Notes: a model not told the origin generated them from the letters alone. A stretch of 64,000 nucleotides of DNA from Candidatus Doudnabacteria bacterium (GCA_037200925.1 JBBCGO010000001.1:447698-511697); one strand, 5' to 3'. Shown: positions 1-16,676, counted from the first letter of the stretch. Numbers and translations: made by a program.

Positions 1-1118
1 ATAAAATCCAAGACCTGCTTATCAATCACGTCCGCTTTCACAATCGGTTGTTTGCAACTCTTATTCTCTTTCCTAAATTTACAACCATAGGCCAAATACT
101 CGCCGTTCTTCCACTTGTAATATTGGGCATACATCTTTGGCAGCATTCTGGCGTTAGGGTCATTCTCCTTGCCCTTAAGCTCTTTATAGCTGTAGTAGCA
201 ATATACCAACCCTTGCAGTAAATAAAATCTATGTTGAGCAACTGGCCGCCCAAAAGTATTCCTGCGGCCAGCTATGGCATCCTGCACCTTATCAAACAAC
301 TTTTGCGAAATTATAGCTGGGTGAATACCTTTTATCGTCGGGTAATTTTTCTTCCGAGAAAATACCATACCAAGGTAAACTTTATTGCTTAGGATGTCTT
401 TAATAGTGCTATAAGTATAGGGTCGGCCAGATTTAGTCCGTGCCTTTGCTTTATTCATTTCAACGGCTACATCCGCATACGAATACCGGCCGGTCGCATA
501 TAATAAATATATTTTCTTTACGTTCTTTGCTCCGAGAGGATCAATCCGCCATTCTGGATCATAAATCGGCCGTCCTTTTTCTTTATCAAAGCCGATTTTC
601 TTTTTCGTGTATCCCGCTGGCGGATTGCCAGTCTGTTTGCCTTGTGTGCGTTTCTCCATCAAAGAGTTCCTGACCCAAAAGCTGATCTGTCTTGAAGTGT
701 GCTCATCAAATAATTCGTTAATCCCCTCGTTTAGAAAAGAACTCGGATCATTCCAGTCATTACCAAAGTTCTGGGTTACTGATGTTACATCAATACCCAG
801 TTTCTTCCTAAGCAATTCTTTGTAATGCCTGGCTTCTTTGACATTGCGAGCAAACCGAGAGGTGTGATAAACCAAGATGACTTCAAACTTGTGTAGCATC
901 GCATCCGTAATCATCCTTTGGAAATCGTCTCGCTTCAAAGCATCCGTGCCTGACACCAAATCCTTATACCACTCCACGATTTGAATGTTGTGTTCACTGG
1001 CGAACTTCTCAATTGATCGCCTTTGGTTATCAGGCGAAAAACCCTTATCCTGCTCCTCAGTACTTTCGCGGATATAAGCAATGCCTGTTTTCAGTTTTAG
1101 AGAGGGTTTTTTAATCAT
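1..1118 (-). CDS. Large serine recombinase. The N-terminus is complete (ATG at 1118-1116); the C-terminus runs off the window start.
   Basis: Manual minus-strand translation from 1118 gives MIKKPSLKLKNGIAYIRESTEEQDKGFSPDNQRRSIEKFASEHNIQ..., i.e. the resolvase catalytic motif (IAYIRxSTEEQ with the Ser nucleophile). A downstream region is recombinase/zinc-ribbon-like (YLLQGLVYC...C). The ORF track lists no stop-bounded ORF for this frame, consistent with the ORF running off the edge. Confidence 0.8.
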   Translation of the reverse strand, partial: MIKKPSLKLKTGIAYIRESTEEQDKGFSPDNQRRSIEKFASEHNIQIVEWYKDLVSGTDALKRDDFQRMITDAMLHKFEVILVYHTSRFARNVKEARHYKELLRKKLGIDVTSVTQNFGNDWNDPSSFLNEGINELFDEHTSRQISFWVRNSLMEKRTQGKQTGNPPAGYTKKKIGFDKEKGRPIYDPEWRIDPLGAKNVKKIYLLYATGRYSYADVAVEMNKAKARTKSGRPYTYSTIKDILSNKVYLGMVFSRKKNYPTIKGIHPAIISQKLFDKVQDAIAGRRNTFGRPVAQHRFYLLQGLVYCYYSYKELKGKENDPNARMLPKMYAQYYKWKNGEYLAYGCKFRKENKSCKQPIVKADVIDKQVLDF

Positions 1119-1129
1119 AACTAATTAAC

Positions 1130-2182
1130 TTACAGTTTTCTGTATCGGGTAGCACTACCCATACCCAACCGTTCTATTTTCTTAAATTTCAATAACTTGT
1201 CCAATACTTGATTAACTGTCGGCCGAGCGACTTTAGCTTTTTTGCTAATCTCTTGGGGAGTGGCCTCGTCTACAGTTTGCAGATACTTCCAGACCAATAT
1301 CTGCTTGGGTGAGAGTAGTTTCTCTATGTCTTCTTTATTGAGCAAGCCAATGGCTATTTTTGACTGCTTAAGCAGTATGTCAAAGAAGAACTCCAACCAC
1401 GGGGTTATATCTTCTCTCTTGCTCTTAGCTGTCTGTTGGCTCTTTCTTAAGGCAATATAGTATTCTGATTTATTATCCTCGATCAATTTTTCGTGGGAGA
1501 CATAAGGCATATAGACAAACCCTTCTTTCAAAAGAAGTAAATTTGTAAGGACACGGGAAAGACGGCCGTTGCCATCTTGGAACGGATGAATGTTCAGAAA
1601 TTCTACAAGGAAGTTGCCGATCACAAGTAGCGGATTATATTTCTTAATTTTGAGCTGGGTTTCTGTCCAATCTACTAATTCTTGCATTTCTTTCGGTGTT
1701 AAGTATGCGGGAGTGGGATTAAATAAAGTTGCAACGAAATTACCTTGAGCATCCGTCATATCAACTCTATTCTCGCCTTTTTTATAATCGCCCTTATGAC
1801 CCTGATCTTTTTCGACATACTTAAGCAGCTCGTTATGCAAATGCTTAATTGAGCTTTCGGACAATTTTATTGTCTGCCAAGCATCAAAAACATTATTTAG
1901 CAGATCAAAGTATCCCTGCACTTCTTGTTTATCTCTCGACGCAAACTTCTTCATTCCCAAACCACGAATGAATTTCTCGACATCTTCATCAGTTAGTTTA
2001 GAGCCCTCAATACGGGTCGAGGCTCCTGTGGAGGTGATTAAAACCCATTTCTTAAGCCTGCCTAACAACTGTGGGCTCAATTGTGCCCCTGATGTCCAGC
2101 GACCCTTAAGATCGTCAATTTGGGCGATTTTAGCCCAAATAGCATCCGGTATGTTACTAAGGCGTTTATCGAAGTTTTTCAT
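1130..2182 (-). CDS. Fic/Doc family protein with a C-terminal winged-helix-like region
   Basis: Canonical Fic motif HPFQDGNGRLSR (HxFx[DE]GNGRxxR) in the 350-aa ORF. Confidence 0.85.
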   Translation of the reverse strand: MKNFDKRLSNIPDAIWAKIAQIDDLKGRWTSGAQLSPQLLGRLKKWVLITSTGASTRIEGSKLTDEDVEKFIRGLGMKKFASRDKQEVQGYFDLLNNVFDAWQTIKLSESSIKHLHNELLKYVEKDQGHKGDYKKGENRVDMTDAQGNFVATLFNPTPAYLTPKEMQELVDWTETQLKIKKYNPLLVIGNFLVEFLNIHPFQDGNGRLSRVLTNLLLLKEGFVYMPYVSHEKLIEDNKSEYYIALRKSQQTAKSKREDITPWLEFFFDILLKQSKIAIGLLNKEDIEKLLSPKQILVWKYLQTVDEATPQEISKKAKVARPTVNQVLDKLLKFKKIERLGMGSATRYRKL

Positions 2183-2414
2183 AGTTATTTAGCTAATATA
2201 ATGATATATATAAGATTATATACGATATATAAAATAAAGTCAAATTGTACTCCCGCTTGTAATGCTTGAGGAGTTCATCATTTTCGATTGTTAGATTTAT
2301 CATAATTTCAATTTTATTAATAGCTTGAATTTGAATTCTAAATAAAAACAGCCTTTCGGCCGCCATTTATTGCGAATCACGAAATTAAATATGTAATTCT
2401 AGCCTTTTCAGCAT

Positions 2415-3371
2415 TTAAGATAATTCGAACAATTGATTCGCTATCCCAAGTAGCTCGTCTTTCTTGGCTACATTATCAAACCATTTTTTAGGAATTCCGC
2501 CAATTCCGTAATATGCTCCGGCAAGTTGTCCGTATATTGCTCCCGTGGTATCAGCGTCATCCCCAAGATTGATTGCCTTGAGTACTCCGTCTTCAAAGAA
2601 TTCCGAGTTATAAAACGCCCACAAAGCCGCTTCCATAGATTTAACTACAAATCCACTCCCTTCTATAAAAGGCGGATCATGATGTTTGAAAGAACCACGG
2701 GCAATATTTTCTATTTCTGATGTGAGTTGATTATTTTTCCAGAAATCTGGAATCGGAGAATATAAATCAGACAATAATTCTTCTTTCGAAACCCCATTTA
2801 ATGCCCCGATAATAAGTCCGGTGTAATATTTGCAAGCATCAGAACATAACTGAGAGCCATGGGTAATTTTTGAGCTTAATCCAGCATTTTTTACTGCTTG
2901 CTCTGGATTACTTCTAAAATACAAAGGTATTGGAGCAAGTCGCATAAGACTTCCATTTCCGTCAGAATTTCGAGAAGAAATCGCCACATACGGATCGTCT
3001 CCATTTCGGTATGTCAGGAGCGCTCTAAGTATTGTTTGGCCGACACCAATAGCCTTTCCTGAGCTTGAACAGTATCCTGTTTCAAGCCATTTTTTATATT
3101 TTTCAATTTGATCAACAGGATCAAAAGATTTTTTCTCGATTAAACTGTTTGCAAGACATAATGCCATAGCAGTATCGTCAGACCAATGACCAGCGGGTAA
3201 ATCAAACCAATCAGAATCTCTAAAATCAGTTATAGGTTCAAATTCGCCAACTGCTTTAAATTCTGCGGGAACTCCGAGGGCATCGCCAATTGCTAAACCA
3301 AACAAGGAGCCATGATATTTTTCCAATAGCTCCTTTCGCACAAGAATTTTTTGTTTTGATTCGATTTCCAT
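2415..3371 (-). CDS. ADP-ribosylglycohydrolase family protein (DraG/ARH-like)
   Basis: Motifs GDALG, HWSDDT, GNGSLMR and DDADTTGAIYGQLAGAYYG are typical of the ADP-ribosylglycohydrolase fold. Confidence 0.85.
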   Translation of the reverse strand: MEIESKQKILVRKELLEKYHGSLFGLAIGDALGVPAEFKAVGEFEPITDFRDSDWFDLPAGHWSDDTAMALCLANSLIEKKSFDPVDQIEKYKKWLETGYCSSSGKAIGVGQTILRALLTYRNGDDPYVAISSRNSDGNGSLMRLAPIPLYFRSNPEQAVKNAGLSSKITHGSQLCSDACKYYTGLIIGALNGVSKEELLSDLYSPIPDFWKNNQLTSEIENIARGSFKHHDPPFIEGSGFVVKSMEAALWAFYNSEFFEDGVLKAINLGDDADTTGAIYGQLAGAYYGIGGIPKKWFDNVAKKDELLGIANQLFELS

Positions 3372-3372
3372 A

Positions 3373-4961
3373 TTATTTTAATTTAGAAAAAAACTTCCAA
3401 ATCGCAAACATACCATAAGTGTCTAGTTTACAATATTCCAACATCTGACTTTCCTTTTCTTTCGCCATCTCCCCAACTAATTCACCTTTAGTTATTTGTC
3501 GATAAGCCTCGATAGCATCGGTACCATTTTGTACACCAAGTGTTTCATAGGATAAATCTGAAGCCCCTGTTAGTTTGGCGACTATTGGCAAGACTTTTTT
3601 AATTGAGGCTCTGCCTTCAAATCCTGGATGTACGTAATGTTGATCCTCAACTATATCCATCAAATCGTATGTTCTTTCAACTACCTTAAGAAAAAAATCT
3701 TTATATTCTGGTAAAAAAATTGCAAGTTCGCGATTTCGTGTATTTTCGAATTTTTTAGACCACGAAATAACCGTTCCCTTATTACCGATATGTTCTCGTA
3801 AATTCTTCGCGATACGCTCAGAGGGCTCTCCATCTAAGATTAGACATTCGAAATGAGTAGGCTCTGAATTCTCGTCATTTAGAACATGTAACGAATATTG
3901 AAAAACAATTTGTTGGTAGGGACGATATCCGCTATACGGAGGGATGGCAGTTGGATATGTTTCATAGTCGAGAAAATAAAGAGGAAATACAAGCGAATCG
4001 AGTTCGGTCTTGATCGACTTAATATCAATCAATGGTTCTTGAGATTTATGAACCATGATTTGATTTAGTTTTCTTGGTTTACTAGGTTTTTCATTTTTTT
4101 TTGATTCTTTGGGCTTTAATCTATCGTCTATTGGCACATTGCCAATTTCCAGTATACCCTCATTAAGTAACTCCTCTAGATATCTCTTACTATTTCCAAT
4201 TCTATTTAAATCATGAACGCTGTATCTAGGTACGCTCGGGTTGATATAAGAAAACGCTGTGCAATGAGCACTGCGACCCCTATAGTAACAAGGGCATGGA
4301 ACCGAAGGCATTTTTTTACTTAATAAATAGTTTTGGGCCTGCTCCATTTCTTCTACGGCAATTGGTTTCAAGCGTTCTATCGCCTCGGTCTTATCCTCGA
4401 TGATGAAAAGTTGACCTGGTGTGAAATCTAGCTCGCCTTTTCTAATGTATGCTCGATTGAGACGGACAAGATATTTTTTATCCAATGGTACTCCACATGC
4501 TTCAAGAACATTCGCCTGGAAAGCAAGGTCATATTCGTATTGAAGTTCTCTTTTTTATTAACTCTCTTAGGTTTTCCCTCGTCTTCTTCATCATCCTCTT
4601 CGGTTGATGACATTTTTATTTCATATATTTCGTATTTCTGAATTGAATCGTTCCATTTCAGGACGTCGGCAGCAGCAACGTATCTATCAGTCGCAAAAAC
4701 AGCCTGATAAATTACAGGTGTTCGCTCCGTAATAAGTTTTTGAGTCAATTCTTGAGCACCTTCGCTCCGCCTCTCAACGAGATAACCCCCAGGAAACATT
4801 CCCCGTGCTAATTCTTCTACCTCATTGCCCATCACAGCTAACGATTTCTCGAAATCCGATACTTCAAACTTTGCATACTCTTTAGACTCATGTCTTTTTA
4901 CCCAAACGTTGTTTGGACACTCTCGGTAGAGAATAAAATCAGTTTTTGTAAGGAGTGCCAT
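3373..4961 (-). pseudogene. DUF2779/Cas4-like PD-(D/E)xK nuclease-like gene, split into two overlapping ORFs (4428..4961 and 3373..4485) by a +/-1 frameshift in an A6 run near 4549-4554
   Basis: The N-terminal ORF has a Cas4/RecB-like start (TDFILYRECPNNVW). The C-terminal ORF has FLDYETY (DUF2779-like). The frame upstream of the second ORF reads ...KRELQYEYDLAFQANVLEACGVPLDKKYLV, which is continuous with the first ORF after a 1-nt change in the aaaaaa tract. Confidence 0.55.
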
Positions 4962-4966
4962 AAATG

Positions 4967-7900
4967 TTAAGCGTTACGCGTGCCTTTGCAATAAGGAAAA
5001 CGAGAGCACCCATAAAACTTTCCTCTCCGGCTGTTTCTCAAGACCATACGTGAATTACAGCGAGGACATAACGAATCAGTTAGGACAGGCGCTGGTCTAG
5101 GTATGGATGTTGTTGTCAGGCGTGTACTGAGGTTTTTGCACGCATTGCAAAATCTCCCATAGCCAGTAATCAAATCAGCATCTTTGAAATCAATTAATGG
5201 CTTTACTTCTTTGCATCTTGGGCATTCCCTAATATCACCATTTTGGAGTCCTTCTATAGTGCCTTGTATATTTGCAAGAAGTGAGTTGGCATTCTCTGGA
5301 TTTTTAAGTAATCGCGCAATTCTATCATCAAGGCTCGCAATCGGGTTTTTCCCACTGTTGAACTTATTGATTCTTAAAAATTTATAGCCATAACTTTCTA
5401 ATACTTTCTGGCGGTATACGTCATCATTGGAGTAGTAGTGCTCATAGTTGAATTCGTTGACTTCATCTGCATCTTTGAAGTGTTCTAAGAAACCATCGTA
5501 CTCAATGATGATTTTGTGTTCCTTGTGTCGCTCATCGGTATAGATAAGATGAAAATCAACCTCGTATGCTGGATGAGTGTAGGTGGGGTCTAGTTGTTTT
5601 AGATATTTTCCTATTTCAAACTGTGGCATAAATTCAATTGAATCTTTGTGCTGTTTCCAAAATTTCGTTTGATAAAACCAATTTAGCACTTCTGGCTCTT
5701 TTTTAGAGTTTGGATCTGTCTCGGAAACGCCGTGCTCTTTTCGCGCTTCGTCCAACATATATTTATAGTGTCTTAACGCTTCTCCAGCAGAGCCGGTGAA
5801 GTCCTCCAGGGGCTTGCTCAATACGAAATGGACGCACTCTTTGGCACGACTAAAGCCCACATTCAAACGCTGCGCTTTTAGTTGCCCGTCCTCTTCAACA
5901 TCTACCTTGCTTAAATCCTTAATGAATACGCCCCAGAGCTTATCGCTGTGTGGAGAGGCTACCATTGAGTAGTAGATGATGTCGCGTTCTTCTCCCTGGC
6001 AGGTGTCGAACGTCATTATCTTGAGTTTCAGCTTGTCCTGGAAATAATCCCACTCTGGCATTTTGCCAATCATTTCTACCAGGAGCTTCTGCTGATTTGT
6101 GTGTGGTGTGATAATACCCACGCTCACGACTTTATCTTCATCCTTTAACCGTTTAAGTTCAGAGATGATAAACTCAACTTCTTTAACATTAGTGTTAGGA
6201 TAGCGTTCATCTGCTGTCGTGGTCTCAACATACGAAAATTTTATTACTTCGTCTATGGATTTCCCGCGAATCTTCATCACTTGCAAACTTTCCTGATAGA
6301 AATACTTGTTTGAATAGGAAATGATTTCTTTATAACCTCTAAAGTGTTTCAGCAATTGGATATTGTAGTTGCTGACGAACTCAAAGAACTCAAGAATAGA
6401 AGTCTTGATGTTGAATTTTTTGAGTCTTTCCAATTTTATTGGATCGGTGGAGACGTTAGCTCTAAAATTAGCATTCAATCCGTTCAGGTACTCACGGTTA
6501 GTATCTCCGCGCGCTTGTGCCGCTTTGATGTTACTAAATTGTTTTTTGTCTCCTAGAATCAGCACTTTCTTTGCCCGCAAGAGGGCAGGAAATGCTTGGG
6601 CAATGCTTACCTGTGAGGCTTCATCAATCACCACTAAATCAAATAATCCTGGCTCTAGTGGTATATACTCAGCGTAGTCCCTAATGCCTGCCAATATGCA
6701 CGGAAAAGCCTCTTTGAGCTTCTTAAACTCATCTCTCGGGAATTTCTGTTTATTCTTTATGATATTCTTTAATGTTTGGGCATCGTTGCGATTGTTTTCA
6801 CAAAAATCAATTAGCTGTCCATCGAGAAGGTATGTTACTTGAGTAGTAACCAAATCTTCAATTTGCCTCATACGAGCGGCGTAGTTCAACTCGAGAATGT
6901 TGGAAAAATCTTTGCTCACTTTTTGCTTTAGGTTCAAGTATCTAATCTGTTTATCAAATTCTAGTTCATCACCGTCCGTAATCGCGTTGCTTATCACTGT
7001 GGCGAACTGTTCGGTATTGATACCAATCTTTTTTGCTGTCTTCGGATATTTCTCAACAATCTCTTTGAGATACCCTACCTTCTCACTCAGAGCGACGATT
7101 TCTTGAACGCCCAGTATAATCGCCTCATCAGTAAGGAGCTTGTGAGCCATCGCGATGAAATCGTAGTCACCTACATTTTTTCCATTTATTTCGTCACCAA
7201 GTTTTTGAGCATAACTAAAAATCTCTTGTATGTCTTTAAGTTCCTGGAGTTGTTCGTGGGGATTGGAGATCATGCTGTGAATAAAGGTTTGCTTGAAACT
7301 AATATCCAATTCTTCTGCTCGTTTTTTACTAAACAGATATCCGACTGCCCAAAGTTTCAGCTTTGAATACTGCTCGATGAAATATTGGAGTTTCTCTAAA
7401 TCTTTTGAGTCAAACTGTGAGAACTTACTGATAGCGTCAATTTTATTATAAAATGTCGCCTTTACTTTCTGTATACTTTCAAGGGCCAGCATTAATAAAC
7501 GCAAGAAATTTTCGGAGTCATCTAGTGTTCGTATACTTTTAGGGGTTACCTCAAGAAGCTCAAAAAACTTCTGCGTGACATTAGAAGTGAAAACGTTTTT
7601 AATTTGCTGCAGTGAGCTTCGTAACTCTCCAAGTTCGATGGCCACTTCGTCTTGTGGAGCCAACTCTTCAAAATCGAAAAATAAAACTTTTTCACTAAAA
7701 TAAAGTTCCAAATCAAAAAATTCTTGGATTTCTTTGATGTTTATATTCTCATAAGCAACCATCTCCGCTTCCAAGTCTTCTTTTAGAGAATTTCCAGATT
7801 TGATAATGGTTTCTTCTATATTCTCATAGTCATTTTTTACTGCGCGATGATAAGTTTTTATTCTATCGATGGCACTTTGAGCGAGAATTGAATTATAAGT

Positions 7901-9526
7901 ATTGCCGGTTTTTCCAAGTCTTAAAATTGGGTTCTGAAAGTTTTCATCATTGCGAACCTTATTCATCGTCTGGGTAATTTTGTCTTCGACGACGTCCAGC
8001 GCTTCCTTTTTATCGGAAAGAACCAATACCGATTGGTTTTTCAAAATTGCATCGAAAATAATAGCGGTAATGGTATGACTTTTTCCCGTTCCTGGCGGCC
8101 CCGAAACTACTAAATAGTTGCAGCCTTCTTTATTAATTGCAGATAGGATTTGCCGCTGCTCGCTATTGAGTGGTATTGGACTTGGGTAGACAAGCTTATC
8201 TGCTGTTTCTGTACCGTCCCATTCACCCTCAACTTCCGGATTGAAAGGCTGAGGATTATTTCTAATAAAGTCGTCTATCAGTTTATTAAAAATTTCTGCA
8301 AGATTGCCACCTTCTAGGCTTAACATCTGGAGGATTTCTTCGTAGTCATTAACCAACGCTTCGTCCGACTTATCAAATAAACAGATGTAACTGCTGTTAG
8401 AAATACGCACAGACGCGCCACGGGCGATTGTAGATTCACCGCTTGAAAATTCCGACGTACCTTCAAGTCCAAAAAAATGAGACATTTCATTTAGAACATC
8501 GTTGATGATTTGAGGGAAATCATCTTTGTGTTGAGACAAATAGATAATGCGATCTGAAATAGTCTGTAAGCTGCCCGTGGTCCCTTTTTGGGTATTGTGC
8601 TCTTGAACTACGAACTCAAGAGCCTTTTTATTAATATATACCTGTGAATCGAAGTCGATACTTAAGGTGTCTCCTTCTCGTTTAGTTGAAAAAGGGATAT
8701 AGAAAATCGGGTACTTACTGTTATTGAAAGAAATATCTCCAAAGTAAAGATAAAATTCTTGCTTATCCAAAATGCTTTTGTTACGCTCCATCTCGAAAAG
8801 TTCCAAAAACAAATCAGCAACTTGGAGATTCTCAAAAAAGGAAGTGAGGTTGCCTTTTACGTCTTGTGGAATGAATACTGATTTGAGTTCTTTTGTGAGA
8901 TTAACCTTCTCTTGAGCAATAATAAGATTCAATACTTCTGAAATTTTGTTCTCCAACAACCGAAGTATGACTGCGGTCAACTCTTCTTCAATAAGATAAA
9001 TATTGTCTTCGTCGCCTAGGTTAAGATTTTGCAAGGGCTTCTCAACGCTTTCAACAAAAGGGTGCACCAGTGCACTACGAATAATCTTTGAGGCTTCTTC
9101 AAGAGAGTTAGTAAGAGCAACGTCGTACTCTTTTGCATATAAAGTGCCCGCCTTCTCTATTTCATCAGCGACTTTTTCAGTAATGCCAGCGATTTCTGTA
9201 TTACTGATTTTACCTATTTGGAGCTTGATTAAATCAAGTAAATTTTTAGGAAGGTTTGTTTTATAAACCCCCTTCTCAATTTTATTCAGAATGTCTTCAT
9301 CAAAACTTTTGCTAATAAGTTTTGATGTTAGCTTGCTGAAAGAAGGGTACTTTTGAAGATTCAAACCAATTAGTAAATTGTCATTGTTCCGAAACTCGAT
9401 AGCCCGACGAGGGAGCTTATGTTTATGGAAATCCGTCTCCAAGAAATCCATAAAATACTTAGCAACCTCTTTGATAAATAAGAGGCCATTTTGTTCGACT
9501 TTTTGAATTAATGTTGCTGGTTTCAT
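4967..9526 (-). CDS. Giant multidomain protein (1519 aa): N-terminal region of unknown function, SF1 (Upf1/DNA2-like) helicase core, DUF559/Vsr-like endonuclease domain, and two C-terminal topoisomerase-type C4 zinc ribbons
   Basis: Walker A VVSGPPGTGKSHT. Motif II VVIDEASQV. Motif VI-like VGFSRAKE. Vsr/DUF559-like IIIEYDGFLEH. CPRC...C..C twice, the second being CPRCNSRMVLRNSRRGKFYGCSRFPYC (zf-C4_Topoisom-like). Confidence 0.85.
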   Translation of the reverse strand: MKPATLIQKVEQNGLLFIKEVAKYFMDFLETDFHKHKLPRRAIEFRNNDNLLIGLNLQKYPSFSKLTSKLISKSFDEDILNKIEKGVYKTNLPKNLLDLIKLQIGKISNTEIAGITEKVADEIEKAGTLYAKEYDVALTNSLEEASKIIRSALVHPFVESVEKPLQNLNLGDEDNIYLIEEELTAVILRLLENKISEVLNLIIAQEKVNLTKELKSVFIPQDVKGNLTSFFENLQVADLFLELFEMERNKSILDKQEFYLYFGDISFNNSKYPIFYIPFSTKREGDTLSIDFDSQVYINKKALEFVVQEHNTQKGTTGSLQTISDRIIYLSQHKDDFPQIINDVLNEMSHFFGLEGTSEFSSGESTIARGASVRISNSSYICLFDKSDEALVNDYEEILQMLSLEGGNLAEIFNKLIDDFIRNNPQPFNPEVEGEWDGTETADKLVYPSPIPLNSEQRQILSAINKEGCNYLVVSGPPGTGKSHTITAIIFDAILKNQSVLVLSDKKEALDVVEDKITQTMNKVRNDENFQNPILRLGKTGNTYNSILAQSAIDRIKTYHRAVKNDYENIEETIIKSGNSLKEDLEAEMVAYENINIKEIQEFFDLELYFSEKVLFFDFEELAPQDEVAIELGELRSSLQQIKNVFTSNVTQKFFELLEVTPKSIRTLDDSENFLRLLMLALESIQKVKATFYNKIDAISKFSQFDSKDLEKLQYFIEQYSKLKLWAVGYLFSKKRAEELDISFKQTFIHSMISNPHEQLQELKDIQEIFSYAQKLGDEINGKNVGDYDFIAMAHKLLTDEAIILGVQEIVALSEKVGYLKEIVEKYPKTAKKIGINTEQFATVISNAITDGDELEFDKQIRYLNLKQKVSKDFSNILELNYAARMRQIEDLVTTQVTYLLDGQLIDFCENNRNDAQTLKNIIKNKQKFPRDEFKKLKEAFPCILAGIRDYAEYIPLEPGLFDLVVIDEASQVSIAQAFPALLRAKKVLILGDKKQFSNIKAAQARGDTNREYLNGLNANFRANVSTDPIKLERLKKFNIKTSILEFFEFVSNYNIQLLKHFRGYKEIISYSNKYFYQESLQVMKIRGKSIDEVIKFSYVETTTADERYPNTNVKEVEFIISELKRLKDEDKVVSVGIITPHTNQQKLLVEMIGKMPEWDYFQDKLKLKIMTFDTCQGEERDIIYYSMVASPHSDKLWGVFIKDLSKVDVEEDGQLKAQRLNVGFSRAKECVHFVLSKPLEDFTGSAGEALRHYKYMLDEARKEHGVSETDPNSKKEPEVLNWFYQTKFWKQHKDSIEFMPQFEIGKYLKQLDPTYTHPAYEVDFHLIYTDERHKEHKIIIEYDGFLEHFKDADEVNEFNYEHYYSNDDVYRQKVLESYGYKFLRINKFNSGKNPIASLDDRIARLLKNPENANSLLANIQGTIEGLQNGDIRECPRCKEVKPLIDFKDADLITGYGRFCNACKNLSTRLTTTSIPRPAPVLTDSLCPRCNSRMVLRNSRRGKFYGCSRFPYCKGTRNA

Positions 9527-9536
9527 TTTATTGGGA

Positions 9537-9716
9537 TTACTTGTTGCGAAGATTAGAGTTTCTTTTTAGGAACTCCTCAATCTCTATTTTATTAATACGC
9601 CAGTGCCCGACTTTCGTTGCCTCAAGCTTCTTACTCTGGATATAGCGAAAAACGGTCTTATAGCTAAGGCCCAGTTTCTTTGCCGTTTGTTCTATTGTTA
9701 GATAGTCTTTTGTCAT
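9537..9716 (-). CDS. Excisionase-type HTH DNA-binding protein (HTH_17 family), 59 aa, not in the ORF track because it is under 60 aa
   Basis: Manual translation gives MTKDYLTIEQTAKKLGLSYKTVFRYIQSKKLEATKVGHWRINKIEIEEFLKRNSNLRNK, matching the excisionase/MerR-like HTH_17 pattern (...KVGRxWRI...). The stop lies 10 nt upstream of the helicase start. Confidence 0.6.
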   Translation of the reverse strand: MTKDYLTIEQTAKKLGLSYKTVFRYIQSKKLEATKVGHWRINKIEIEEFLKRNSNLRNK

Positions 9717-9952
9717 AGTTAATTACTATACACCATCTGTCCAAAATTGTCAATAATTGTCCAATTTGTCCAGCAACCGGCCGTGATACTAATATTTGCT
9801 ATAAAAACCGTATTGAATTGAGACCGATATTTACTATGCCTTAGTGTCATTCCTGACAGCAGTATTTGCGTAATACTTAGGGCGGGTGGATTTGAGATGA
9901 ATTTATGATTTGGTTGCTTGTTACTGATAGAAGCGGATGATACTAATAATTG

Positions 9953-11098
9953 CTAAAATAAACTCTGTTGTTTCTGACTGGATTTTGGATTGATTCCAAA
10001 TTCTTGCAAGACAAAATTTAGGACTGCCCCGTCAGGAACATTCAGCTCTATCCCCCTAACCTCAATGTCCTTTATCTCTTTAAGGCGTCTGAAATAGGTG
10101 CTGCGAGAGCCAGTGGTTTGCTTAAGATGATTCTTTAGCCCTGCCCAACCTTCCAGCCTTAAAACTCCTACAGCTTGGTATAGCTGTGCCTTAAGTTTTC
10201 CGTCACTATAATTCTTTTCGATAAAATCCTTGACCTGTTGGTTAAGCTGCCTGTAATCATAATCCTTTGAAACAACCAAACCATTCAAGGGATGATTAAA
10301 TATCTGGTCAACTTCGTGCTTCAATAGATCATTGGCAATGTTATACTTGAAAACTTCTGCCAAGGTAAAATTCTTTTTTGACGGATAAAACTTAGATAGG
10401 AATTGTCTGACTGAAGTTACATTGTGCAGGGTCAATTCAAACCTAAGAATAGATTCCTTATTATCGGCCAGCTTTCTGTGAATTTCTTTTTCTTCTTTGG
10501 TAAAACCCTGATCCAGCAAACTCTGAATTTGGTCATAAACCACAAAATGCGACGACGTCCTATTGAAGTATTCAAGATGGGTTAACTGACCATTAGGATT
10601 AAATTTTGGTTCAAATGACGAACGAAATCGGTATTTAGAATGAGCTAAAATTGCCAAAGCTTCTTCGGTGGTGCCGAAGGCTTTCACGTTGAGGTTCTTA
10701 CAATAAGAGACCATCGTTACTACTCCGTCCCTAACACTATTTCGAGAAGCCGATACCTTGATTGAAGCTAAAAAACTTATGATTGAGTCAATCAGAACTT
10801 CAAGATCAGCTTCGGATATTTCATAATAATTCTGGCCGTATTTGAGTTTGGGCAAAGAAACCTCGAGGTATAAATAATTATTACCTCGATTAAAACTGCT
10901 TTGGTGTGTCCAGTATTTCATAATGTAAATGCCCTTGGCTTGCTGGGATTTACGAAATTGGTCGCTGGTATGAATTAACTTTTTAATTCTTTTCTTGCCG
11001 TTCTTATCGTTGTCAAAACTCCCCTTGGCATCCTGAAAATAAGGGTTGTTTTCAACCGAATGAAAATTTGAAATTCTGATTCTTACGCTATCAATCAT
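9953..11098 (-). CDS. Putative rolling-circle replication initiator (Rep_trans-like)
   Basis: HFVVYDQIQSLL...ILRFELTLHN resembles the Rep_trans core (catalytic YDK followed by RxExR). The N-terminus IDSVRIRISNF resembles IDxLRFTF. The call rests on these weak motifs plus context only. Confidence 0.45.
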   Translation of the reverse strand: MIDSVRIRISNFHSVENNPYFQDAKGSFDNDKNGKKRIKKLIHTSDQFRKSQQAKGIYIMKYWTHQSSFNRGNNYLYLEVSLPKLKYGQNYYEISEADLEVLIDSIISFLASIKVSASRNSVRDGVVTMVSYCKNLNVKAFGTTEEALAILAHSKYRFRSSFEPKFNPNGQLTHLEYFNRTSSHFVVYDQIQSLLDQGFTKEEKEIHRKLADNKESILRFELTLHNVTSVRQFLSKFYPSKKNFTLAEVFKYNIANDLLKHEVDQIFNHPLNGLVVSKDYDYRQLNQQVKDFIEKNYSDGKLKAQLYQAVGVLRLEGWAGLKNHLKQTTGSRSTYFRRLKEIKDIEVRGIELNVPDGAVLNFVLQEFGINPKSSQKQQSLF

Positions 11099-11121
11099 AG
11101 AGGGGGTTTTTTAAGAGATGG

Positions 11122-11304
11122 TTAAGTCGCCACCCTGGTCTTAGGAGAACCCCCTCTAAGAGTTGAACCTACAGCCAAGGTAGCAGCTTTACTATCCCTG
11201 TTCTTAATAACTTGTTTTTGCCAGTAATTAAAGAAGTATCTGGCTAAGGCGTCAGACACAGCTTCTTTGTTTTCTTTGGTTAGTTTTGTTCTATGATTTG
11301 TCAT
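11122..11304 (-). CDS. Hypothetical small protein
   Basis: 60-aa ORF, no recognisable motif. Confidence 0.3.
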   Translation of the reverse strand: MTNHRTKLTKENKEAVSDALARYFFNYWQKQVIKNRDSKAATLAVGSTLRGGSPKTRVAT

Positions 11305-11409
11305 TTTTTTGAAACAAAAACAGCCCCATCAGGGCTGTTCTCGTAAGAACAGATTCTAATGGGGCTTCGTAAAGCCTAAGCCACAAAGTCTCGTAAGGCC
11401 TTATGACAC

Positions 11410-12207
11410 TTATTTGTCGGGGATAATTTTCAAATCCTTTGGGATTTGGAGGGTCTCGCTACACTTGCTACATTTATGCGTTCCTCTCATAAAGTGAGAC
11501 ATATCTTCAATTTTGAAGATCAGGTTGCCGCATTTGCTACAAACACAATTCGCACTCTTAATTCTTGGTGAAATTATACCTTCTTTGATGTAGTTGTCAA
11601 CTTGTTTCTTAAATCTTTCCTCAACTTTAAGGGATATATCGTCGGCCAAATTATCAAATCTCTCTTTTAAAGCCATCACGGCCGACCTGACTTCAAATGC
11701 AGGCGATGGAGATGGGCTTGGTGAGTAAGATGGCGATGGTGAAAACGAAGGAGATAAACTGATCTGTTCGACGGTAAGACCAAAATCATATTTTTTATTC
11801 AGAGAAACAACACTACTAATAACTCGGTCACTGGCTTCGGTCAATCTTATTGTAGGTTCAGTTAAGGTGGCAAAATTAGTGGTCAACTGTTGTATTGATG
11901 ATACAACCTTTCCAGCCTGAATAAATACGGGAGAATGAGCTAAATCAGTCAACACTTTTGCGGAATTATTTAGGTCAATCAACATTCCATTATTAACTGT
12001 CATAACCGTGCCTAAATTTGCAAGATTCTGGGTTGCCAAGACTAGGCTAGGAGAATGGATCGTTTCTGCTAATGCCCTTGCCGACCTGGTTATATCAGTA
12101 ACAATTGCATCGTTGATCGAAGTTCCAATAATAGCAGAGACTGGTGCTGGTTTTTTCAAATCAACTTCGTCTTTTTTCTTGTTTTGAGGGGGTTTAGTGT
12201 CGGACAT
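11410..12207 (-). CDS. Hypothetical protein with an SP-repeat linker and a C-terminal Cys4 zinc ribbon
   Basis: SPSFSPSPSYSPSPSPSP repeat. CSKCGN...HKCSKCSETL at the C-terminus. A hairpin plus T-run terminator at 11305-11345 read on the minus strand. Confidence 0.5.
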   Translation of the reverse strand: MSDTKPPQNKKKDEVDLKKPAPVSAIIGTSINDAIVTDITRSARALAETIHSPSLVLATQNLANLGTVMTVNNGMLIDLNNSAKVLTDLAHSPVFIQAGKVVSSIQQLTTNFATLTEPTIRLTEASDRVISSVVSLNKKYDFGLTVEQISLSPSFSPSPSYSPSPSPSPAFEVRSAVMALKERFDNLADDISLKVEERFKKQVDNYIKEGIISPRIKSANCVCSKCGNLIFKIEDMSHFMRGTHKCSKCSETLQIPKDLKIIPDK

Positions 12208-12366
12208 TACTTAGAGGGGTTTATATGCATCAATATATTAACAAAAAACAGGCTTGCCGCCTATTTCAAATTTTGGAATCGCATAGTAAAGGATGTTAGA
12301 ACTCAAATATATACTACACAGAGTGCTTAAAACTACCCTAGAATATTTTAGGAGTTATAATTATTT

Positions 12367-12654
12367 TCAGTCCTCTAACCATTTATTTTTTTGAATGATC
12401 CCAATAAAATATGCGGTTGCGTGTGTTGCAAGTGTAAGTCCAGTCTTACTTAACCCGTCCCAATCGCCGATAGAAATAAAGTGATAAGCCATTATTATAG
12501 CCCAAAGCAATACTATCGCTGGTAAGACATAAATAACACAAATCAAAACATTATTTACTGCGTTTAATGCAGTTTGTTTCCGTCTATGACTTTGTGAAGC
12601 ATCATCAGCTTCCAAATCAGCCTCTGTTGCAACATTTTTGCCTTTCCTTTTCAT
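12367..12654 (-). CDS. Small membrane protein
   Basis: Two hydrophobic helices. Stop/start abuts the ImmA gene. Confidence 0.45.
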   Translation of the reverse strand: MKRKGKNVATEADLEADDASQSHRRKQTALNAVNNVLICVIYVLPAIVLLWAIIMAYHFISIGDWDGLSKTGLTLATHATAYFIGIIQKNKWLED

Positions 12655-12655
12655 A

Positions 12656-13168
12656 TTAGACTATGGTTTGCCCTAGTAAGAATCTTGCTCTCAATGTTGC
12701 CGCAGATTCTGAAACCTTAAATTGCTCTGCAACTTCCGGCAAACTAATAGCATTTTTCCAAACCCTTAAAAATAAGTCTTTAGGCATCAGTAAATCAGCC
12801 GCCATATTATTGGCTTCAATTTCGATCTTTTTTTCAGCGTCTGTTAACTCTCTGCCCTCTTCGCTATTAAGTGCCTTAACAGGTTGTTTAATATTATCAA
12901 TATGTTCATTATTTGTATCAAAAAGATGTTTATGTTGAATGAAATGAGCTATTTCGTGAGCAATTGTAAAACGCTTCCTTGTTAACGGGTGAGAAGTGTT
13001 AATGTAAATAACAAAGTTGTCGCCCTCTTTGCTCAAAGAACCAGCATAATTATCATCTAATTCGCTGGTTTCTACTACATATAGACCTAATTCTTTTGCC
13101 AAATCAACAATAGGCACAGGATTTTGCTGAGCATATTTTGCTAAGATTTGTTCGGTTTTTTGATCCAT
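12656..13168 (-). CDS. ImmA/IrrE family metallopeptidase (DUF955)
   Basis: HEIAHF (HExxH) at the expected position. Family typical of prophage/ICE regulation modules. Confidence 0.8.
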   Translation of the reverse strand: MDQKTEQILAKYAQQNPVPIVDLAKELGLYVVETSELDDNYAGSLSKEGDNFVIYINTSHPLTRKRFTIAHEIAHFIQHKHLFDTNNEHIDNIKQPVKALNSEEGRELTDAEKKIEIEANNMAADLLMPKDLFLRVWKNAISLPEVAEQFKVSESAATLRARFLLGQTIV

Positions 13169-13297
13169 ACTTTTTAGAAAATAATGCCTAATTCTATACT
13201 ACCACACCCTCTGGGTAAAGTCATTGGATAAAATGAGCCTTGCATTCTTCAATTGAAAACCTAAATTACCCAGCTTTAATTTATAGAAAATAAATTT

Positions 13298-13372
13298 TGG
13301 GGTGCCAGACGAGAATCGAACTCGCGTGACCGCTGCCACAGAGCGGCGTTCTACCATTGAACTACTGGCACC
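13298..13372 (-). tRNA. tRNA-His (anticodon GTG) with encoded G-1 and CCA
   Basis: Hand-folded cloverleaf: 8-bp acceptor including G-1:C73. Anticodon stem CCGCU/AGCGG with loop CUGUGGC. T-loop TTCGATT. 3' CCA encoded. Confidence 0.85.
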
Positions 13373-13450
13373 ATAACAATTTAATTACACTACTTGCTAC
13401 ACATCATAATGGCCACATCCTAACAGTTTAATTTGCTTCCACATTGGAAA

Positions 13451-13525
13451 GTCAGCGGCCGAGCGGAATCGGACCCACGTGACAGCTGCCACAGAGCTGC
13501 GTTCTACCATTGAACTACGGGCACC
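13451..13525 (-). pseudogene. Degenerate tRNA-His(GTG)-like copy. The 5' ~47 nt are near-identical to the intact tRNA-His. The 3' half is divergent with a poor T-arm and acceptor and no CCA.
   Basis: Alignment with 13298..13372: 3 substitutions in the 5' 47 nt versus about 9 in the 3' 25 nt. The T-stem pairs only 3/5. Confidence 0.5.
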
Positions 13526-13588
13526 TCGTCTCAGTTTGTAGACACTTCGCGATTTTGCTTCGCAAAATACGCTACGGTCTACACGCTG
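13526..13588 (-). promoter_or_regulatory. Conserved structured tRNA 5'-leader element, copy A (tRNA orientation is the minus strand)
   Basis: About 85-90% identical to copies at 19008..19081 and 38495..38567. Contains a TTTTGC-GAA-GCAAAA hairpin and an outer GYAGAC/GUCURC stem with compensatory changes. Confidence 0.6.
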
Positions 13589-13651
13589 CTCCTCTCAAAA
13601 AATTTGTTCTCGGCCTTCGGCCTGCGACTCAAATTTTTTGTGGTTTAAAAG

Positions 13652-13963
13652 CTACTTACTTGCGACCATGACCGCGAACACGACCACTGTCAGTGCAAAC
13701 ATCCAACCCACAGTATACCCAAAAAACTTCAGCGCTTCTTTTTTCTGTCCATCAAAATACATCAGCACCGGCCGGCCCAATACTAACGCGCTGGTGATCG
13801 CGGCGGATAGCACAAACAACATCAGGACTAAGATAGGAGTAAACGCAGTATCTTTCTGTCCGAACCAAACAGACCCATGGTTCATGATAGATGCGACGAG
13901 AGTGACATACAGCAGCACCAAAACCGCATGACCCAAACTGTGAGCAACTGGATTGTCTTTCAT
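13652..13963 (-). CDS. Small membrane protein (hypothetical)
   Basis: 103-aa ORF with three hydrophobic segments. Preferred over the antisense ORF 13638..13931, which has an implausible composition. Confidence 0.45.
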   Translation of the reverse strand: MKDNPVAHSLGHAVLVLLYVTLVASIMNHGSVWFGQKDTAFTPILVLMLFVLSAAITSALVLGRPVLMYFDGQKKEALKFFGYTVGWMFALTVVVFAVMVASK

Positions 13964-13977
13964 ATTTTATCCTTTCT

Positions 13978-14052
13978 TGGTGCCCCTGGCTGGAATCGAA
14001 CCAACATCAAGGCCTTAGAAGAGCCTTGCTTTATCCATTAAGCTACAGGGGC
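13978..14052 (-). tRNA. tRNA-Arg (anticodon TCT)
   Basis: Hand-folded: acceptor GCCCCUG/CAGGGGC. Anticodon stem AGGCU/GGCCU with loop CUUCUAA. T-loop TTCGATT. CCA encoded. Confidence 0.8.
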
Positions 14053-14277
14053 GCAATTTTAACAAAAAATCCCCACACAGATTGGAGATTCAGCATAAAC
14101 ATACCTGCTGTGTCAGGTAGGTTTGGATCGATTTTTTAAAGCCTCTTAATTATACTCCTGTTCAGCCTAAATGTCAAAAAATGTTAATTTTTGCTTAGGT
14201 TTCTGTTATAATAATATCAACAATTTTGGGCGGCTATCCTCAATAGAAACCCAAAAAAACAACTAAAAAGAGGGCTT

Positions 14278-15099: not shown

Positions 15100-15198
15100 C
15101 CGCTTAACCTTTCGGGGTTAGGCGGCTTTTTTTGTCTGTTAATAAATGAAACAATTTACGCGATCAAACGTATAAATTATAGAAAGGAGAACAAATAT

Positions 15199-15357: not shown

Positions 15358-15362
15358 ATTGG

Positions 15363-16623: not shown

Positions 16624-16626
16624 ACG

Positions 16627-16655
16627 TTGATTTCAAGGCTCAAAAATGCTATATT
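16627..16655 (+). promoter_or_regulatory. Sigma70-like promoter for tRNA-Arg(TCG)
   Basis: TTGATT, 17-nt spacer, TATATT, about 21 nt upstream of the tRNA 5' end. Confidence 0.55.
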
Positions 16656-16676
16656 TTGGAAGCTATTCAGCAAAAC

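What the first reader, a model, noticed from the sequence alone, without database searches (positions are those of the whole stretch)
1..13525. AT-rich integrated mobile element next to a duplicated/chimeric tRNA-His
The first ~13.4 kb is visibly AT-rich (roughly 35-40% GC by eye) compared with the following 20 kb (roughly 50-55%). Its genes are almost all on one strand, and the content is what an integrative element would carry: a large serine recombinase at the far left (truncated by the window edge), an excisionase-type HTH, a Rep_trans-like initiator, an ImmA/IrrE protease, nucleases, and an intact tRNA-His (13298..13372) of its own. Immediately to the right is a second tRNA-His copy (13451..13525). 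This copy keeps the 5' half and carries the conserved native tRNA leader (13526..13588), but its 3' half is heavily diverged. The simplest reading is that the element integrated within the native tRNA-His gene and supplies a replacement tRNA-His. The other attachment site would lie beyond the window start.
Basis: partly seen in the sequence, partly recalled or inferred. Interest (0 to 1): 0.8.

Follow-up and report, generated by a model that had tools for sequence, protein, structure and literature searches.

The report
tRNA-His-splitting island carrying spare tRNA-His
A 13.9-kb mobile element has inserted into the only tRNA-His gene seen at this locus of a Candidatus Doudnabacteria genome, cutting off the gene's last 14 bases, and it carries its own complete tRNA-His as a substitute; it uses a serine recombinase, a type of enzyme rarely linked to tRNA targets.

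Summary
Window 1-13464 (38.6% GC against 48.5% for the rest) is most of a 13,928-bp integrative element. An identical public contig (L087: 0 mismatches over 13,617 nt) continues past the window start. It shows the recombinase (546 aa) ending about 465-480 nt beyond position 1, directly on the missing 3' end of the native tRNA-His. That end is CATCGGGCACCCCA, which pairs perfectly with copy B's 5' acceptor strand. Five related loci (four distinct) have tRNA-Arg, the 103-aa gene and one intact tRNA-His, with no element. One of them (L091) also shares the 15-nt flank found at the far junction. The crossover is the CC at tRNA positions 61-62 (window 13466..13465). Copy B is the native gene up to that CC, followed by the element's attP arm. 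That arm is an imperfect inverted repeat of the arm lying inside the recombinase's 3' coding end. Copy A is the element's own intact tRNA-His, and its site reads CT, not CC, so it should not be a substrate. The same layout recurs in L003, L007 and L023. Recombination activity, expression of A and the transfer route are not shown. I rate it a new variant of a known kind.

The parts
1..1118 (-). Large serine recombinase, N-terminal 372 of 546 aa. The rest of the gene, attR and the displaced native tRNA-His 3' end lie 0-480 nt beyond window position 1 (seen on L087 12500-14140).
   Evidence: Pfam Resolvase 1e-24, Recombinase 2.4e-18, Zn_ribbon_recom 9e-6. The full length and far junction come from L087, which matches the window with 0 mismatches over 13,617 nt.
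1130..2182 (-). Fic/DOC protein with a C-terminal winged HTH (cargo, SoFic-like)
   Evidence: Pfam Fic 9e-15. PADLOC SoFic 8.6e-42. 81% identical copies sit next to the recombinase in L002 and L005.
2415..3371 (-). ADP-ribosylglycohydrolase (cargo)
   Evidence: Pfam ADP_ribosyl_GH 1.8e-76.
3373..4961 (-). DUF2779 protein split into two overlapping ORFs (177 aa at 4428-4961 and 370 aa at 3373-4485). This is probably a frameshift.
   Evidence: Pfam DUF2779 1.8e-37. The same gene is called as one 529-aa product in GCA_015689235.1.
4967..9526 (-). 1519-aa SF1 helicase (AAA_11/AAA_12) with a C-terminal topoisomerase-type zinc ribbon; defence-like cargo
   Evidence: Pfam. PADLOC PDC-S37 1e-42, MkoC 1e-39, Hhe 4e-22. 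NCBIfam ProA and Hhe matches are far below their cut-offs.
9537..9716 (-). 59-aa HTH_17 protein, a candidate excisionase/recombination directionality factor or regulator
   Evidence: Pfam HTH_17 3e-14. PHROG excisionase families.
9953..11098 (-). 381-aa candidate rolling-circle replication initiator
   Evidence: It has no direct Pfam, NCBIfam or PDB match. Its homologues are 33-36% identical (E 1e-45 to 1e-51). Seven of the 10 aligned sequences match Phage_CRI (best 7e-10) and one matches Rep_trans.
11122..12654 (-). Three ORFs of unknown function (60 aa, 265 aa with a C-terminal zinc-ribbon-like CxxC pair, 95 aa membrane protein)
   Evidence: The 265- and 95-aa ORFs had no significant match in Pfam, PHROGs or PADLOC, and the 265-aa ORF also had none in NCBIfam. 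The 60-aa ORF was tested only against Pfam, with no match.
12656..13168 (-). ImmA/IrrE-type M78 metalloprotease
   Evidence: Pfam Peptidase_M78 5.6e-19. PADLOC CapP 1.4e-29.
13298..13372 (-). Element-borne complete tRNA-His(GTG), copy A: G-1, perfect acceptor stem, C73, encoded CCA, canonical T-loop UUCGAUU. Positions 61-62 are CU.
   Evidence: ARAGORN. Rfam tRNA 63.9 bits. The fold shows an 8-bp acceptor stem.
13373..13439 (-). AT-rich spacer between the attL arm and copy A. It contains a weak possible promoter (TTAAAC-17-TATGAT) read by eye.
   Evidence: Sequence. The consensus scan reported no promoter here.
13440..13464 (-). P' arm of attL (GCTCGGCCGCTGACTTTCCAATGTG), the element-derived sequence that replaces the tRNA's last 14 nt
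   Evidence: It is an imperfect inverted repeat of the P arm at the recombinase 3' end: 17/30 identical against 10.7 +/- 1.6 for shuffles. It is homologous to the recombinase 3' ends of L001, L002 and L005 in reverse complement.
13465..13466 (-). Crossover dinucleotide CC (tRNA positions 61-62)
   Evidence: attL matches the native gene up to C62 and attR matches it from C61 on.
13467..13525 (-). Native tRNA-His 5' part (G-1 to T-loop position 60), i.e. copy B without its foreign tail
   Evidence: It matches L091's intact tRNA-His except for one compensated pair (28:42). B as a whole scores 38.5 bits.
13526..13640 (-). ~115-nt repeat upstream of B. It is a host feature, not part of the element, and also occurs upstream of tRNA-Lys (18956-19081, + strand).
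   Evidence: 63 nt at 87%. The alignment averages 86% identity, with changes that preserve two hairpins. It is absent in relatives.

Best explanation
This is a 13,928-bp non-viral integrative element of a Candidatus Doudnabacteria genome. A large serine recombinase inserted it into the T-arm of the native tRNA-His gene.

Shown by sequence comparison:
- The crossover is the CC at tRNA positions 61-62.
- attP is a ~50-bp imperfect inverted repeat. Its left arm forms the last conserved codons of the recombinase ORF (..RKVVARA). Integration therefore swaps the last ~20 codons of the recombinase.
- Integration leaves attL, which is the native promoter side plus tRNA positions -1 to 62 plus the P' arm. 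This is copy B. It has no acceptor stem, a broken T-stem and U73 where C73 should be.
- attR is the recombinase 3' end plus native positions 61-76 (CCA encoded) and the native 3' flank. It lies 13.9 kb away, just outside the window.
- Because a serine-recombinase attP arm must mirror the other arm, it cannot also restore the tRNA's 3' end. Instead the element carries a whole tRNA-His gene (copy A), whose start lies 153 bp downstream of B's start.

Inferred:
- A supplies tRNA-His, either by read-through from the native promoter or from a weak promoter in the spacer.
- A has CU instead of CC at the crossover position and a different T-stem, so the element's own recombinase cannot recombine productively with it.
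- The HTH_17 protein is the likely directionality factor.
- The Phage_CRI-like protein probably replicates the excised circle.
- The remaining genes are cargo of the anti-phage defence type: a Mokosh/Hhe-like helicase, a SoFic-like Fic, ADP-ribosylglycohydrolase, a DUF2779 nuclease-like protein and a CapP-like protease.
For: - Composition step at the boundary.
- Recombinase domains.
- The far junction is on contig L087, which is identical to the window over 13,617 nt. The recombinase ORF ends on CC-CATCGGGCACCCCA-ACAAAGGACATTAGC, followed by host genes.
- B's 5' strand GTGCCCG pairs perfectly with CGGGCAC. The rejoined gene folds with an 8-bp acceptor stem and B does not.
- Five related loci (four distinct) have one intact tRNA-His in the same tRNA-Arg(TCT)/103-aa context. 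L091 has the same tRNA ends and the same 15-nt 3' flank. Its gene scores 61.3 bits, against 38.5 for B and 63.9 for A.
- The P and P' arms form an inverted repeat in four elements: 15-19 of 30 identical, against ~10.5 +/- 1.7 for shuffles.
- The same layout (damaged copy, intact copy, cargo, recombinase, displaced tRNA 3' end) occurs in L003, L007 and L023. Damaged copies score 37.8-45.5 bits (L023's scored below the 29-bit threshold) and intact copies 61-70 bits.
- At least 11 more relatives (>=50% identity) end their recombinase ORF on a tRNA-His-like 3' end (..CACC[C][C][A]; two further loci have ..CGCC).
- No phage structural genes were found.
- The Rep-like assignment is by transitive homology. 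The defence-like cargo is from PADLOC.
Against: - There is no direct evidence of excision, circular forms or recombinase activity. No empty-site variant was seen within the same species.
- DUF2779 is split in this copy, which hints at some decay.
- Expression of A is not shown, and no consensus promoter was found in the spacer.
- I could not scan the rest of the genome for another tRNA-His gene.
- In L003, L007 and L023 the spare tRNA keeps a perfect copy of the target site, including CC. In the excised circle this should invite self-recombination, so the self-immunity idea does not generalise.
- The three closest recombinase relatives (L001, L002, L005) sit in the opposite orientation relative to the tRNA, and their far ends are not on the contigs.
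- No transfer machinery was identified.
Confidence: 0.9

Rival explanations
1. A is the native tRNA-His and the island sits at its 3' end in the classical way. B would then be an old, decayed tandem duplicate or a relic of an earlier event.
For: The AT-rich DNA begins right after A, and A is the intact copy.
Against: - Relatives have a single tRNA-His directly after the 103-aa gene, and it is B-like, not A-like: acceptor GTGCCCG, T-arm GTGGG UCCGAUU.
- B's missing 3' end and its native flank lie at the far end of the element.
- The sequence after B's CC mirrors the recombinase-side arm, whereas the sequence after A does not.
Confidence: 0.02
2. The element is a prophage, for example a filamentous inovirus-like phage, rather than a non-viral island.
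For: It has a Phage_CRI/Rep_trans-like initiator, an ImmA protease, an excisionase-like HTH and small membrane proteins. Inoviruses have been reported in the Candidate Phyla Radiation (PMC6813254).
Against: - PHROGs and Pfam found no capsid, portal or tail gene, no credible terminase (one marginal large-terminase hit in the helicase's ATPase region, E 8e-4) and no Zot/pI morphogenesis ATPase.
- More than half of the element is defence-like cargo.
- The Rep gene is shared with only one of the 24 closest related loci (L001-L023, L083).
Confidence: 0.08
3. The element is a fixed fossil. It integrated as described but can no longer move, and the host now simply depends on copy A.
For: DUF2779 is split. 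All assemblies of this species that could be read carry the element. No transfer genes were found.
Against: - The recombinase ORF is full length with all three domains.
- Both att sites keep the CC core and the inverted-repeat arms.
- Relatives at 71-75% identity in the flanking protein lack the element.
- The GC content has not drifted toward that of the host.
Confidence: 0.25
4. B is still a working tRNA-His and A is merely extra cargo, as many mobile elements carry tRNAs.
For: B still passes the Rfam threshold (38.5 against 29 bits) and ARAGORN calls it.
Against: - Its predicted fold has no acceptor stem.
- The T-stem has two mismatches, and there is a C4xC69 mismatch.
- It has U73 instead of the C73 that pairs with G-1, which is the main bacterial HisRS identity element (established knowledge).
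- No CCA is encoded.
- Damaged copies in six loci score 35-46 bits, against 61-70 for intact ones.
Confidence: 0.04

Closest known systems
Large serine integrases of phages and islands (phiC31, Bxb1, A118/LI, TP901-1; CcrA/B of SCCmec)
   Same: It has the Resolvase, Recombinase and zinc-ribbon architecture. The best NCBIfam matches are CcrB, CcrA and XisF, all far below their cut-offs. The att sites are short, have inverted-repeat arms and share only a 2-bp identity. Orientation follows the central dinucleotide, which fits CC in this element and GG in L001, L002 and L005 (the principle is established knowledge for Bxb1).
   Different: The target is a tRNA gene. A 2020 survey stated that use of a t(m)RNA gene by a serine integrase had not been reported before, and it found only 14 of 297 candidates (PMC7192596). 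Here attP overlaps the 3' end of the integrase ORF.
tRNA-targeting genomic islands and prophages with tyrosine integrases (for example P4-like, L5, pSAM2; the Islander/TIGER catalogues)
   Same: It uses a conserved tRNA gene as the landing site, the integrase sits at the element edge, and the crossover is in the T-arm region.
   Different: Those elements carry the tRNA's 3' segment in attP and rebuild the gene at attL. This element does not rebuild it: B scores 38.5 bits with a broken acceptor stem. It brings a whole second gene instead.
Gene-replacement integrative elements (a tmRNA-encoding element inserted in a Rhodobacter tmRNA gene; hrpB islands), as described in PMC7192596
   Same: The target gene is disrupted and not restored, and an element-borne homologue replaces it.
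   Different: The precedent concerns tmRNA and a protein gene. I did not check which type of integrase the tmRNA element uses. Here the gene is a tRNA, a serine recombinase does the work, and the pattern recurs in a whole clade (window, L003, L007, L023).
Regulated-gene-integrity elements with serine recombinases (SPbeta in spsM, skin in sigK, A118 in comK)
   Same: A serine recombinase splits a host gene, and precise excision would rejoin it.
   Different: The split gene here is presumably essential and is permanently compensated, so nothing suggests a developmental switch.
SSV1-type archaeal elements whose attP lies inside the integrase gene (from my own knowledge)
   Same: Integration changes the integrase ORF because attP lies within it, and the target is a tRNA gene.
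   Different: SSV1 uses a tyrosine integrase and splits the gene into two inactive parts. Here only the ~20-codon non-conserved tail is exchanged.

Membership tests
Large serine recombinase (S-Int) | N-terminal resolvase catalytic domain containing the catalytic serine motif | tested here: met
   Pfam Resolvase 1e-24. The Y-I-R-E-S-T-E-E-Q motif is invariant in the four aligned proteins.
Large serine recombinase (S-Int) | C-terminal Recombinase domain plus a zinc ribbon | tested here: met
   Pfam Recombinase 2.4e-18 and Zn_ribbon_recom 9e-6. The full-length 546-aa protein is on L087.
Large serine recombinase (S-Int) | Short att sites with inverted-repeat half-sites and identity limited to a central dinucleotide | tested here: met
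   attL and attR overlap the native sequence only at C61C62. P against rc(P') is 17/30 identical, against 10.7 +/- 1.6 for shuffles, and three related elements give similar values.
Large serine recombinase (S-Int) | Catalyses attP x attB recombination, with a directionality factor needed for the reverse reaction | not testable with these tools
   This needs an in vitro or heterologous assay. An HTH_17 candidate factor is present.
Site-specific integrative genetic element (genomic island) | Foreign DNA bounded by attL and attR, with the uninterrupted site present in relatives | tested here: met
   Both junctions were defined. Empty sites are in L088-L092. The GC contrast is 38.6% against 48.5%.
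Gene-replacement integrative element | The target gene is disrupted and not restored at either junction | tested here: met
   B scores 38.5 bits against 61.3 for the intact relative, and has no acceptor stem. attR holds only 16 nt of the tRNA.
Gene-replacement integrative element | The element carries a functional homologue of the disrupted gene | tested here: inconclusive
   A looks intact: 63.9 bits, G-1:C73, CCA. Its expression and charging were not tested.
Prophage (tailed) | Capsid, portal, terminase or tail genes | tested here: not met
   PHROGs and Pfam found no structural or packaging families, apart from a marginal terminase-ATPase hit within the helicase (E 8e-4).
Inovirus-like prophage | pI/Zot morphogenesis ATPase plus a rolling-circle Rep | tested here: not met
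   A Rep-like protein is present, but no Zot/pI match was found in any ORF.
Integrative conjugative or mobilisable element | Relaxase and/or type IV secretion or coupling proteins | tested here: inconclusive
   Pfam and NCBIfam detected none. The Phage_CRI-like protein could in principle nick an origin for transfer, but this was not tested.

The most novel reading that the evidence does not exclude
A whole clade of large serine recombinases specialises in tRNA genes. In Patescibacteria the target is tRNA-His at C61C62. A distant clade from soil and peat metagenomes sits on tRNA-Asp.

In the tRNA-His branch the mirror-image constraint on a serine-recombinase attP prevents repair of the gene. 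Every element would therefore have to carry a spare tRNA-His placed next to attP, which makes the host depend on the element for an essential tRNA.

In this genome the spare also replaces a host tRNA that has an unusual C55 T-loop with one that has the canonical U55. Integration orientation would flip between close relatives simply by inverting the CC core.
Probability: 0.4. Interest if true: 0.7.

Novelty: new variant of a known kind. Interest (0 to 1): 0.6.

Why it matters
- It gives a clean, sequence-level case with both junctions, empty sites and a defined 2-bp crossover. It shows a serine integrase using a tRNA gene, which a 2020 survey called unreported and in need of proof (PMC7192596).
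- It shows a different answer to the problem of landing in an essential tRNA. The element replaces the gene rather than repairing it, probably because the two attP arms of a serine recombinase must mirror each other.
- It documents mobile, defence-gene-carrying islands in Candidate Phyla Radiation bacteria. Little is known about their mobile elements, and their small genomes are expected to carry single-copy tRNA genes.
- The recombinase and its compact att sites (a conserved tRNA-His T-arm) could serve as a genetic tool for these uncultivated lineages.

Tried and rejected
- I first looked up the Fic protein to extend the contig, but it is not on record. The 103-aa host protein and the helicase worked instead.
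- I considered that the T-loop UCCGAUU shared by the window, L001 and L005 came from the element, which would put the crossover further 5'. This was rejected when the empty-site genomes L091 and L089 showed the same T-loop in intact genes.
- I considered that B's tail is a relic of an inverted recombinase gene, because it resembles the reverse complement of the L001, L002 and L005 recombinase 3' ends. I prefer the inverted-repeat half-site reading. The similarity stops ~30-35 nt from the core in all four elements, and the true P arm is present at the other end.
- I considered a classical 16-nt direct-repeat att at A's 3' end in L003. This was rejected because the sequence after the intact copy does not mirror the P arm, whereas the sequence after the damaged copy does.
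- Direct Pfam, NCBIfam and PDB searches with the 381-aa protein found nothing. Only its homologues link it to Phage_CRI.
- A profile of that protein found a homologue in only one of the 24 closest related loci (L001-L023, L083), namely L007, so it is not a core gene.
- Rfam found no LOOT RNA or other known RNA in window 1-20000 apart from the tRNAs.
- Literature searches for serine recombinases with tRNA-His, the Candidate Phyla Radiation or tRNA targets found no description of this family.

Full report
**Observation.** The composition step is real. One-kb windows from 1 to 13000 have 36-42% GC, while most of the rest of the window has 44-55%. Overall, 1-13464 is 38.6% GC and 13465-64000 is 48.5%. 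ARAGORN finds two tRNA-His(GTG) genes on the minus strand: A at 13371..13298 and B at 13525..13453. A scores 63.9 bits against the Rfam tRNA model and B scores 38.5. The two share 60 nt at 90% identity and then diverge.

Read on the minus strand, the order is tRNA-Arg(TCT), a 103-aa membrane protein gene, a ~115-nt repeat, B, an 80-nt AT-rich spacer, A, and then twelve ORFs all in the same direction. Those ORFs are:
- an ImmA/M78 protease
- three ORFs of unknown function
- a 381-aa protein
- an HTH_17 protein
- a 1519-aa SF1 helicase with a topoisomerase-type zinc ribbon
- a split DUF2779 gene
- an ADP-ribosylglycohydrolase
- a Fic protein with a winged HTH
- a large serine recombinase that runs off the window

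**The missing end.** The host is a Candidatus Doudnabacteria MAG (GCA_037975565.1, a 964-kb contig). A second public contig, L087, matches the window from 13617 down to 1 without a single mismatch and continues for 5 kb. On it the recombinase is 546 aa long. Its ORF reads ..CACAGGAAAGTGGTGGCTAGAGC-CC-CATCGGGCACCCCA-ACAAAGGACATTAGC.. and is followed by a RibD_C gene and other host genes.

CCCAT is the partner of B's T-stem strand GTGGG. CGGGCAC is the perfect complement of B's acceptor strand GTGCCCG. Next come C73 and CCA. Joining B's first 61 bases to this tail gives a tRNA that folds with an 8-bp acceptor stem (G-1:C73 included). B itself forms no acceptor stem.

**Empty sites.** Homologues of the 103-aa protein at 71-75% identity were traced to their contigs. 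Five loci (four distinct) were recovered: L088, L089/L090, L091 and L092. All have tRNA-Arg(TCT), the 103-aa gene and one tRNA-His, and none has an element. L091's gene is GGTGCCCGTAGTTCAATGGTAGAACGCCGCTCTGTGGCAGCGGTCACGTGGGTCCGATTCCCATCGGGCACCCCA. It differs from the rejoined window gene only at the compensated pair 28:42. It is followed by ACAAAGGACATTAGC, the same flank that follows the displaced tail at the far junction. It scores 61.3 bits. This is the uninterrupted target. It also shows that the odd T-loop UCCGAUU (C at position 55) is native to these bacteria, since L089 has it too, and is not a sign of decay.

**Crossover and att sites.** attL (copy B) matches the native gene up to C62. 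attR matches it from C61 on. The exchange therefore took place at the CC of positions 61-62, which is window 13466..13465 on the minus strand, and the element is 13,928 bp long. The reconstructed attP is CGTCGCACACAGGAAAGTGGTGGCTAGAGC-CC-GCTCGGCCGCTGACTTTCCAATGTGGAAGC. Its two arms are imperfect inverted repeats, 17 of 30 identical against 10.7 +/- 1.6 for shuffles.

The left arm encodes the last conserved residues of the recombinase. The ~20-codon tail of the protein is therefore encoded by host DNA in the integrated state and would be encoded by the spacer in the circular state (read). Short sites, mirrored arms and a 2-bp overlap are what is expected of a large serine recombinase (established knowledge).

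**Why a spare tRNA.** Elements with tyrosine integrases rebuild a targeted tRNA because attP contains a copy of the gene's 3' segment. Here the arm that ends up behind the native 5' part must mirror the other arm, and it only loosely resembles a tRNA 3' end. As a result B has two T-stem mismatches, a C4xC69 mismatch, U73 and no CCA. The element instead carries a complete gene, A, whose start lies 153 bp downstream of B's start.

A is clearly of Doudnabacteria type. It is identical to L091's gene outside one compensated acceptor pair and the T-arm, where it has GCGAG UUCGAUU CUCGU. Its positions 61-62 are CU. For serine integrases, mismatched central dinucleotides block productive recombination (established knowledge for Bxb1 and phiC31). 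A should therefore not be attacked by the element's own enzyme. This last step is an inference.

**Relatives.** Scans with the recombinase found 3 close loci in genomes (plus one distant, 24%-identity match) and 80 loci in metagenomes.
- L003, L007 and L023 have the same layout. It runs tRNA-Arg (in L003 and L007), a damaged tRNA-His, 60-660 bp of spacer, an intact tRNA-His, 8-10 kb of AT-rich cargo, the recombinase, and then the displaced 3' end of the tRNA exactly at the ORF's end.
- Damaged copies score 35-46 bits and intact ones 61-70 bits.
- At least 11 further loci with >=50% identical recombinases end their ORF on a tRNA-His-like 3' end, and two more on a ..CGCC variant. In L010, L021 and L083 this end is followed by a tRNA-Arg.
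- Cargo differs between loci. Only Fic (81% in L002 and L005), ImmA and the 381-aa protein (L007) recur.

**Open points from the relatives.**
- In L003, L007 and L023 the spare tRNA is identical or nearly identical to the rejoined native gene and keeps CC. The excised circle would then carry attP and a perfect attB in direct orientation, and I cannot explain how self-deletion is avoided.
- In L001, L002 and L005, which are the closest relatives of the window's recombinase, the recombinase 3' end abuts the reverse complement of the tRNA's 5' part, and the core reads GG in the recombinase direction. This is what flipping the central dinucleotide of a near-palindromic attP would produce. However, those contigs end before the other junction.

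**What kind of element.** PHROGs and Pfam find no capsid, tail or Zot-type genes and no credible terminase. The 381-aa protein has no direct family match. Its homologues are 33-36% identical to it. Seven of the 10 aligned sequences match Phage_CRI and one matches Rep_trans, so a rolling-circle initiator is likely.

PADLOC links Fic to SoFic, the helicase to PDC-S37, Mokosh and Hhe proteins, and ImmA to CapP. NCBIfam matches to the anti-phage proteins ProA and Hhe are far below their cut-offs. I read the element as a small integrative island with defence-type cargo. I do not claim membership of any named defence system.

**Literature.** Mageeney et al. 2020 (PMC7192596) state that serine integrases had not been known to target tRNA genes. 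They found only 14 of 297 candidates and said these need experimental proof. The same paper cites a tmRNA-encoding element inserted in a tmRNA gene as a case of 'gene replacement'. Searches for this family in CPR bacteria returned nothing. The library is incomplete, so this is not proof that no description exists.

**Verdict.** It is a new variant of known kinds: a serine-integrase island, tRNA targeting and gene replacement. Confidence in the anatomy is high (0.9). Confidence in current mobility, in expression of A and in the self-immunity idea is moderate to low.

Noticed in passing
L023 6413-6543 (+), L001 4023-4140 (-), L007 6948-7062 (+), L003 7057-7178 (-): LOOT RNA (Rfam RF03000, function unknown) scores 67-84 bits inside four related tRNA-His-targeting elements. 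In L007 it lies just after the Rep-like gene. None was found in the window's element.
   Followed up: partly
L027-L077 (for example L027 11461-11534, minus strand): A distant clade of the same recombinase family (31-37% identity, from soil and peat metagenomes) has its ORF 3' end overlapping an antisense tRNA-Asp(GTC) in about 28 loci. The one copy scored (L027) is intact at 72 bits. tRNA targeting therefore seems family-wide, and here the tRNA appears to be preserved.
   Followed up: partly
L001 7400-7480, L002 3580-3660, L005 1975-2060: The three closest relatives of the window's recombinase sit in the opposite orientation. The recombinase ORF reads into the reverse complement of the tRNA-His 5' part, and the core reads GG. 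Their far ends and any spare tRNA are off the contigs.
   Followed up: partly
window 13526-13640 (-) and 18956-19081 (+): A ~115-nt repeat lies directly upstream of tRNA-His B and of tRNA-Lys. Base changes between the two copies preserve two hairpins (GTAGAC/GTCTAC against GCAGAC/GTCTGC, and GGCC/GGCC against GACC/GGTC). It is absent upstream of tRNA-His in relatives and has no Rfam match.
   Followed up: partly
window 13472 (position 55 of copy B); L091 6328-6401; L089 6323-6396: Native tRNA-His of these Doudnabacteria-type genomes has the T-loop UCCGAUU, with C at the nearly universal U55 position. The element's copy A has the canonical UUCGAUU.
   Followed up: partly
window 3373-4961 (-): The DUF2779 gene is split into overlapping 177-aa and 370-aa ORFs here. 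It is called as a single 529-aa product in GCA_015689235.1, so this is either a frameshift or a sequencing error.
   Followed up: no
window 9784-9807 and 9938-9961: Two 24-nt direct repeats (TGATACTAATATTTGCTATAAAAA, 88% identical) lie 154 nt apart in the intergenic region just downstream of the Rep-like gene. They may be origin or iteron sequences.
   Followed up: no
window 13217-13235 (+): The sequence AAAGTCATTGGATAAAATG resembles the recombinase-side att half-site motif (AAAGTnnTTGGTCAAG). It lies between the ImmA start and copy A and may be a chance match.
   Followed up: no
window 37001-38000, 41001-42000, 51001-52000: There are further local GC dips (0.40-0.41). The first lies next to tRNA-Gly (37551) and tRNA-Pro (38421). 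None was examined.
   Followed up: no
L003 9073-11175: In L003 the recombinase ORF reads ~500 nt past the junction into host DNA, antisense to a host gene (10687-11697). This shows how variable the host-encoded tail can be.
   Followed up: no
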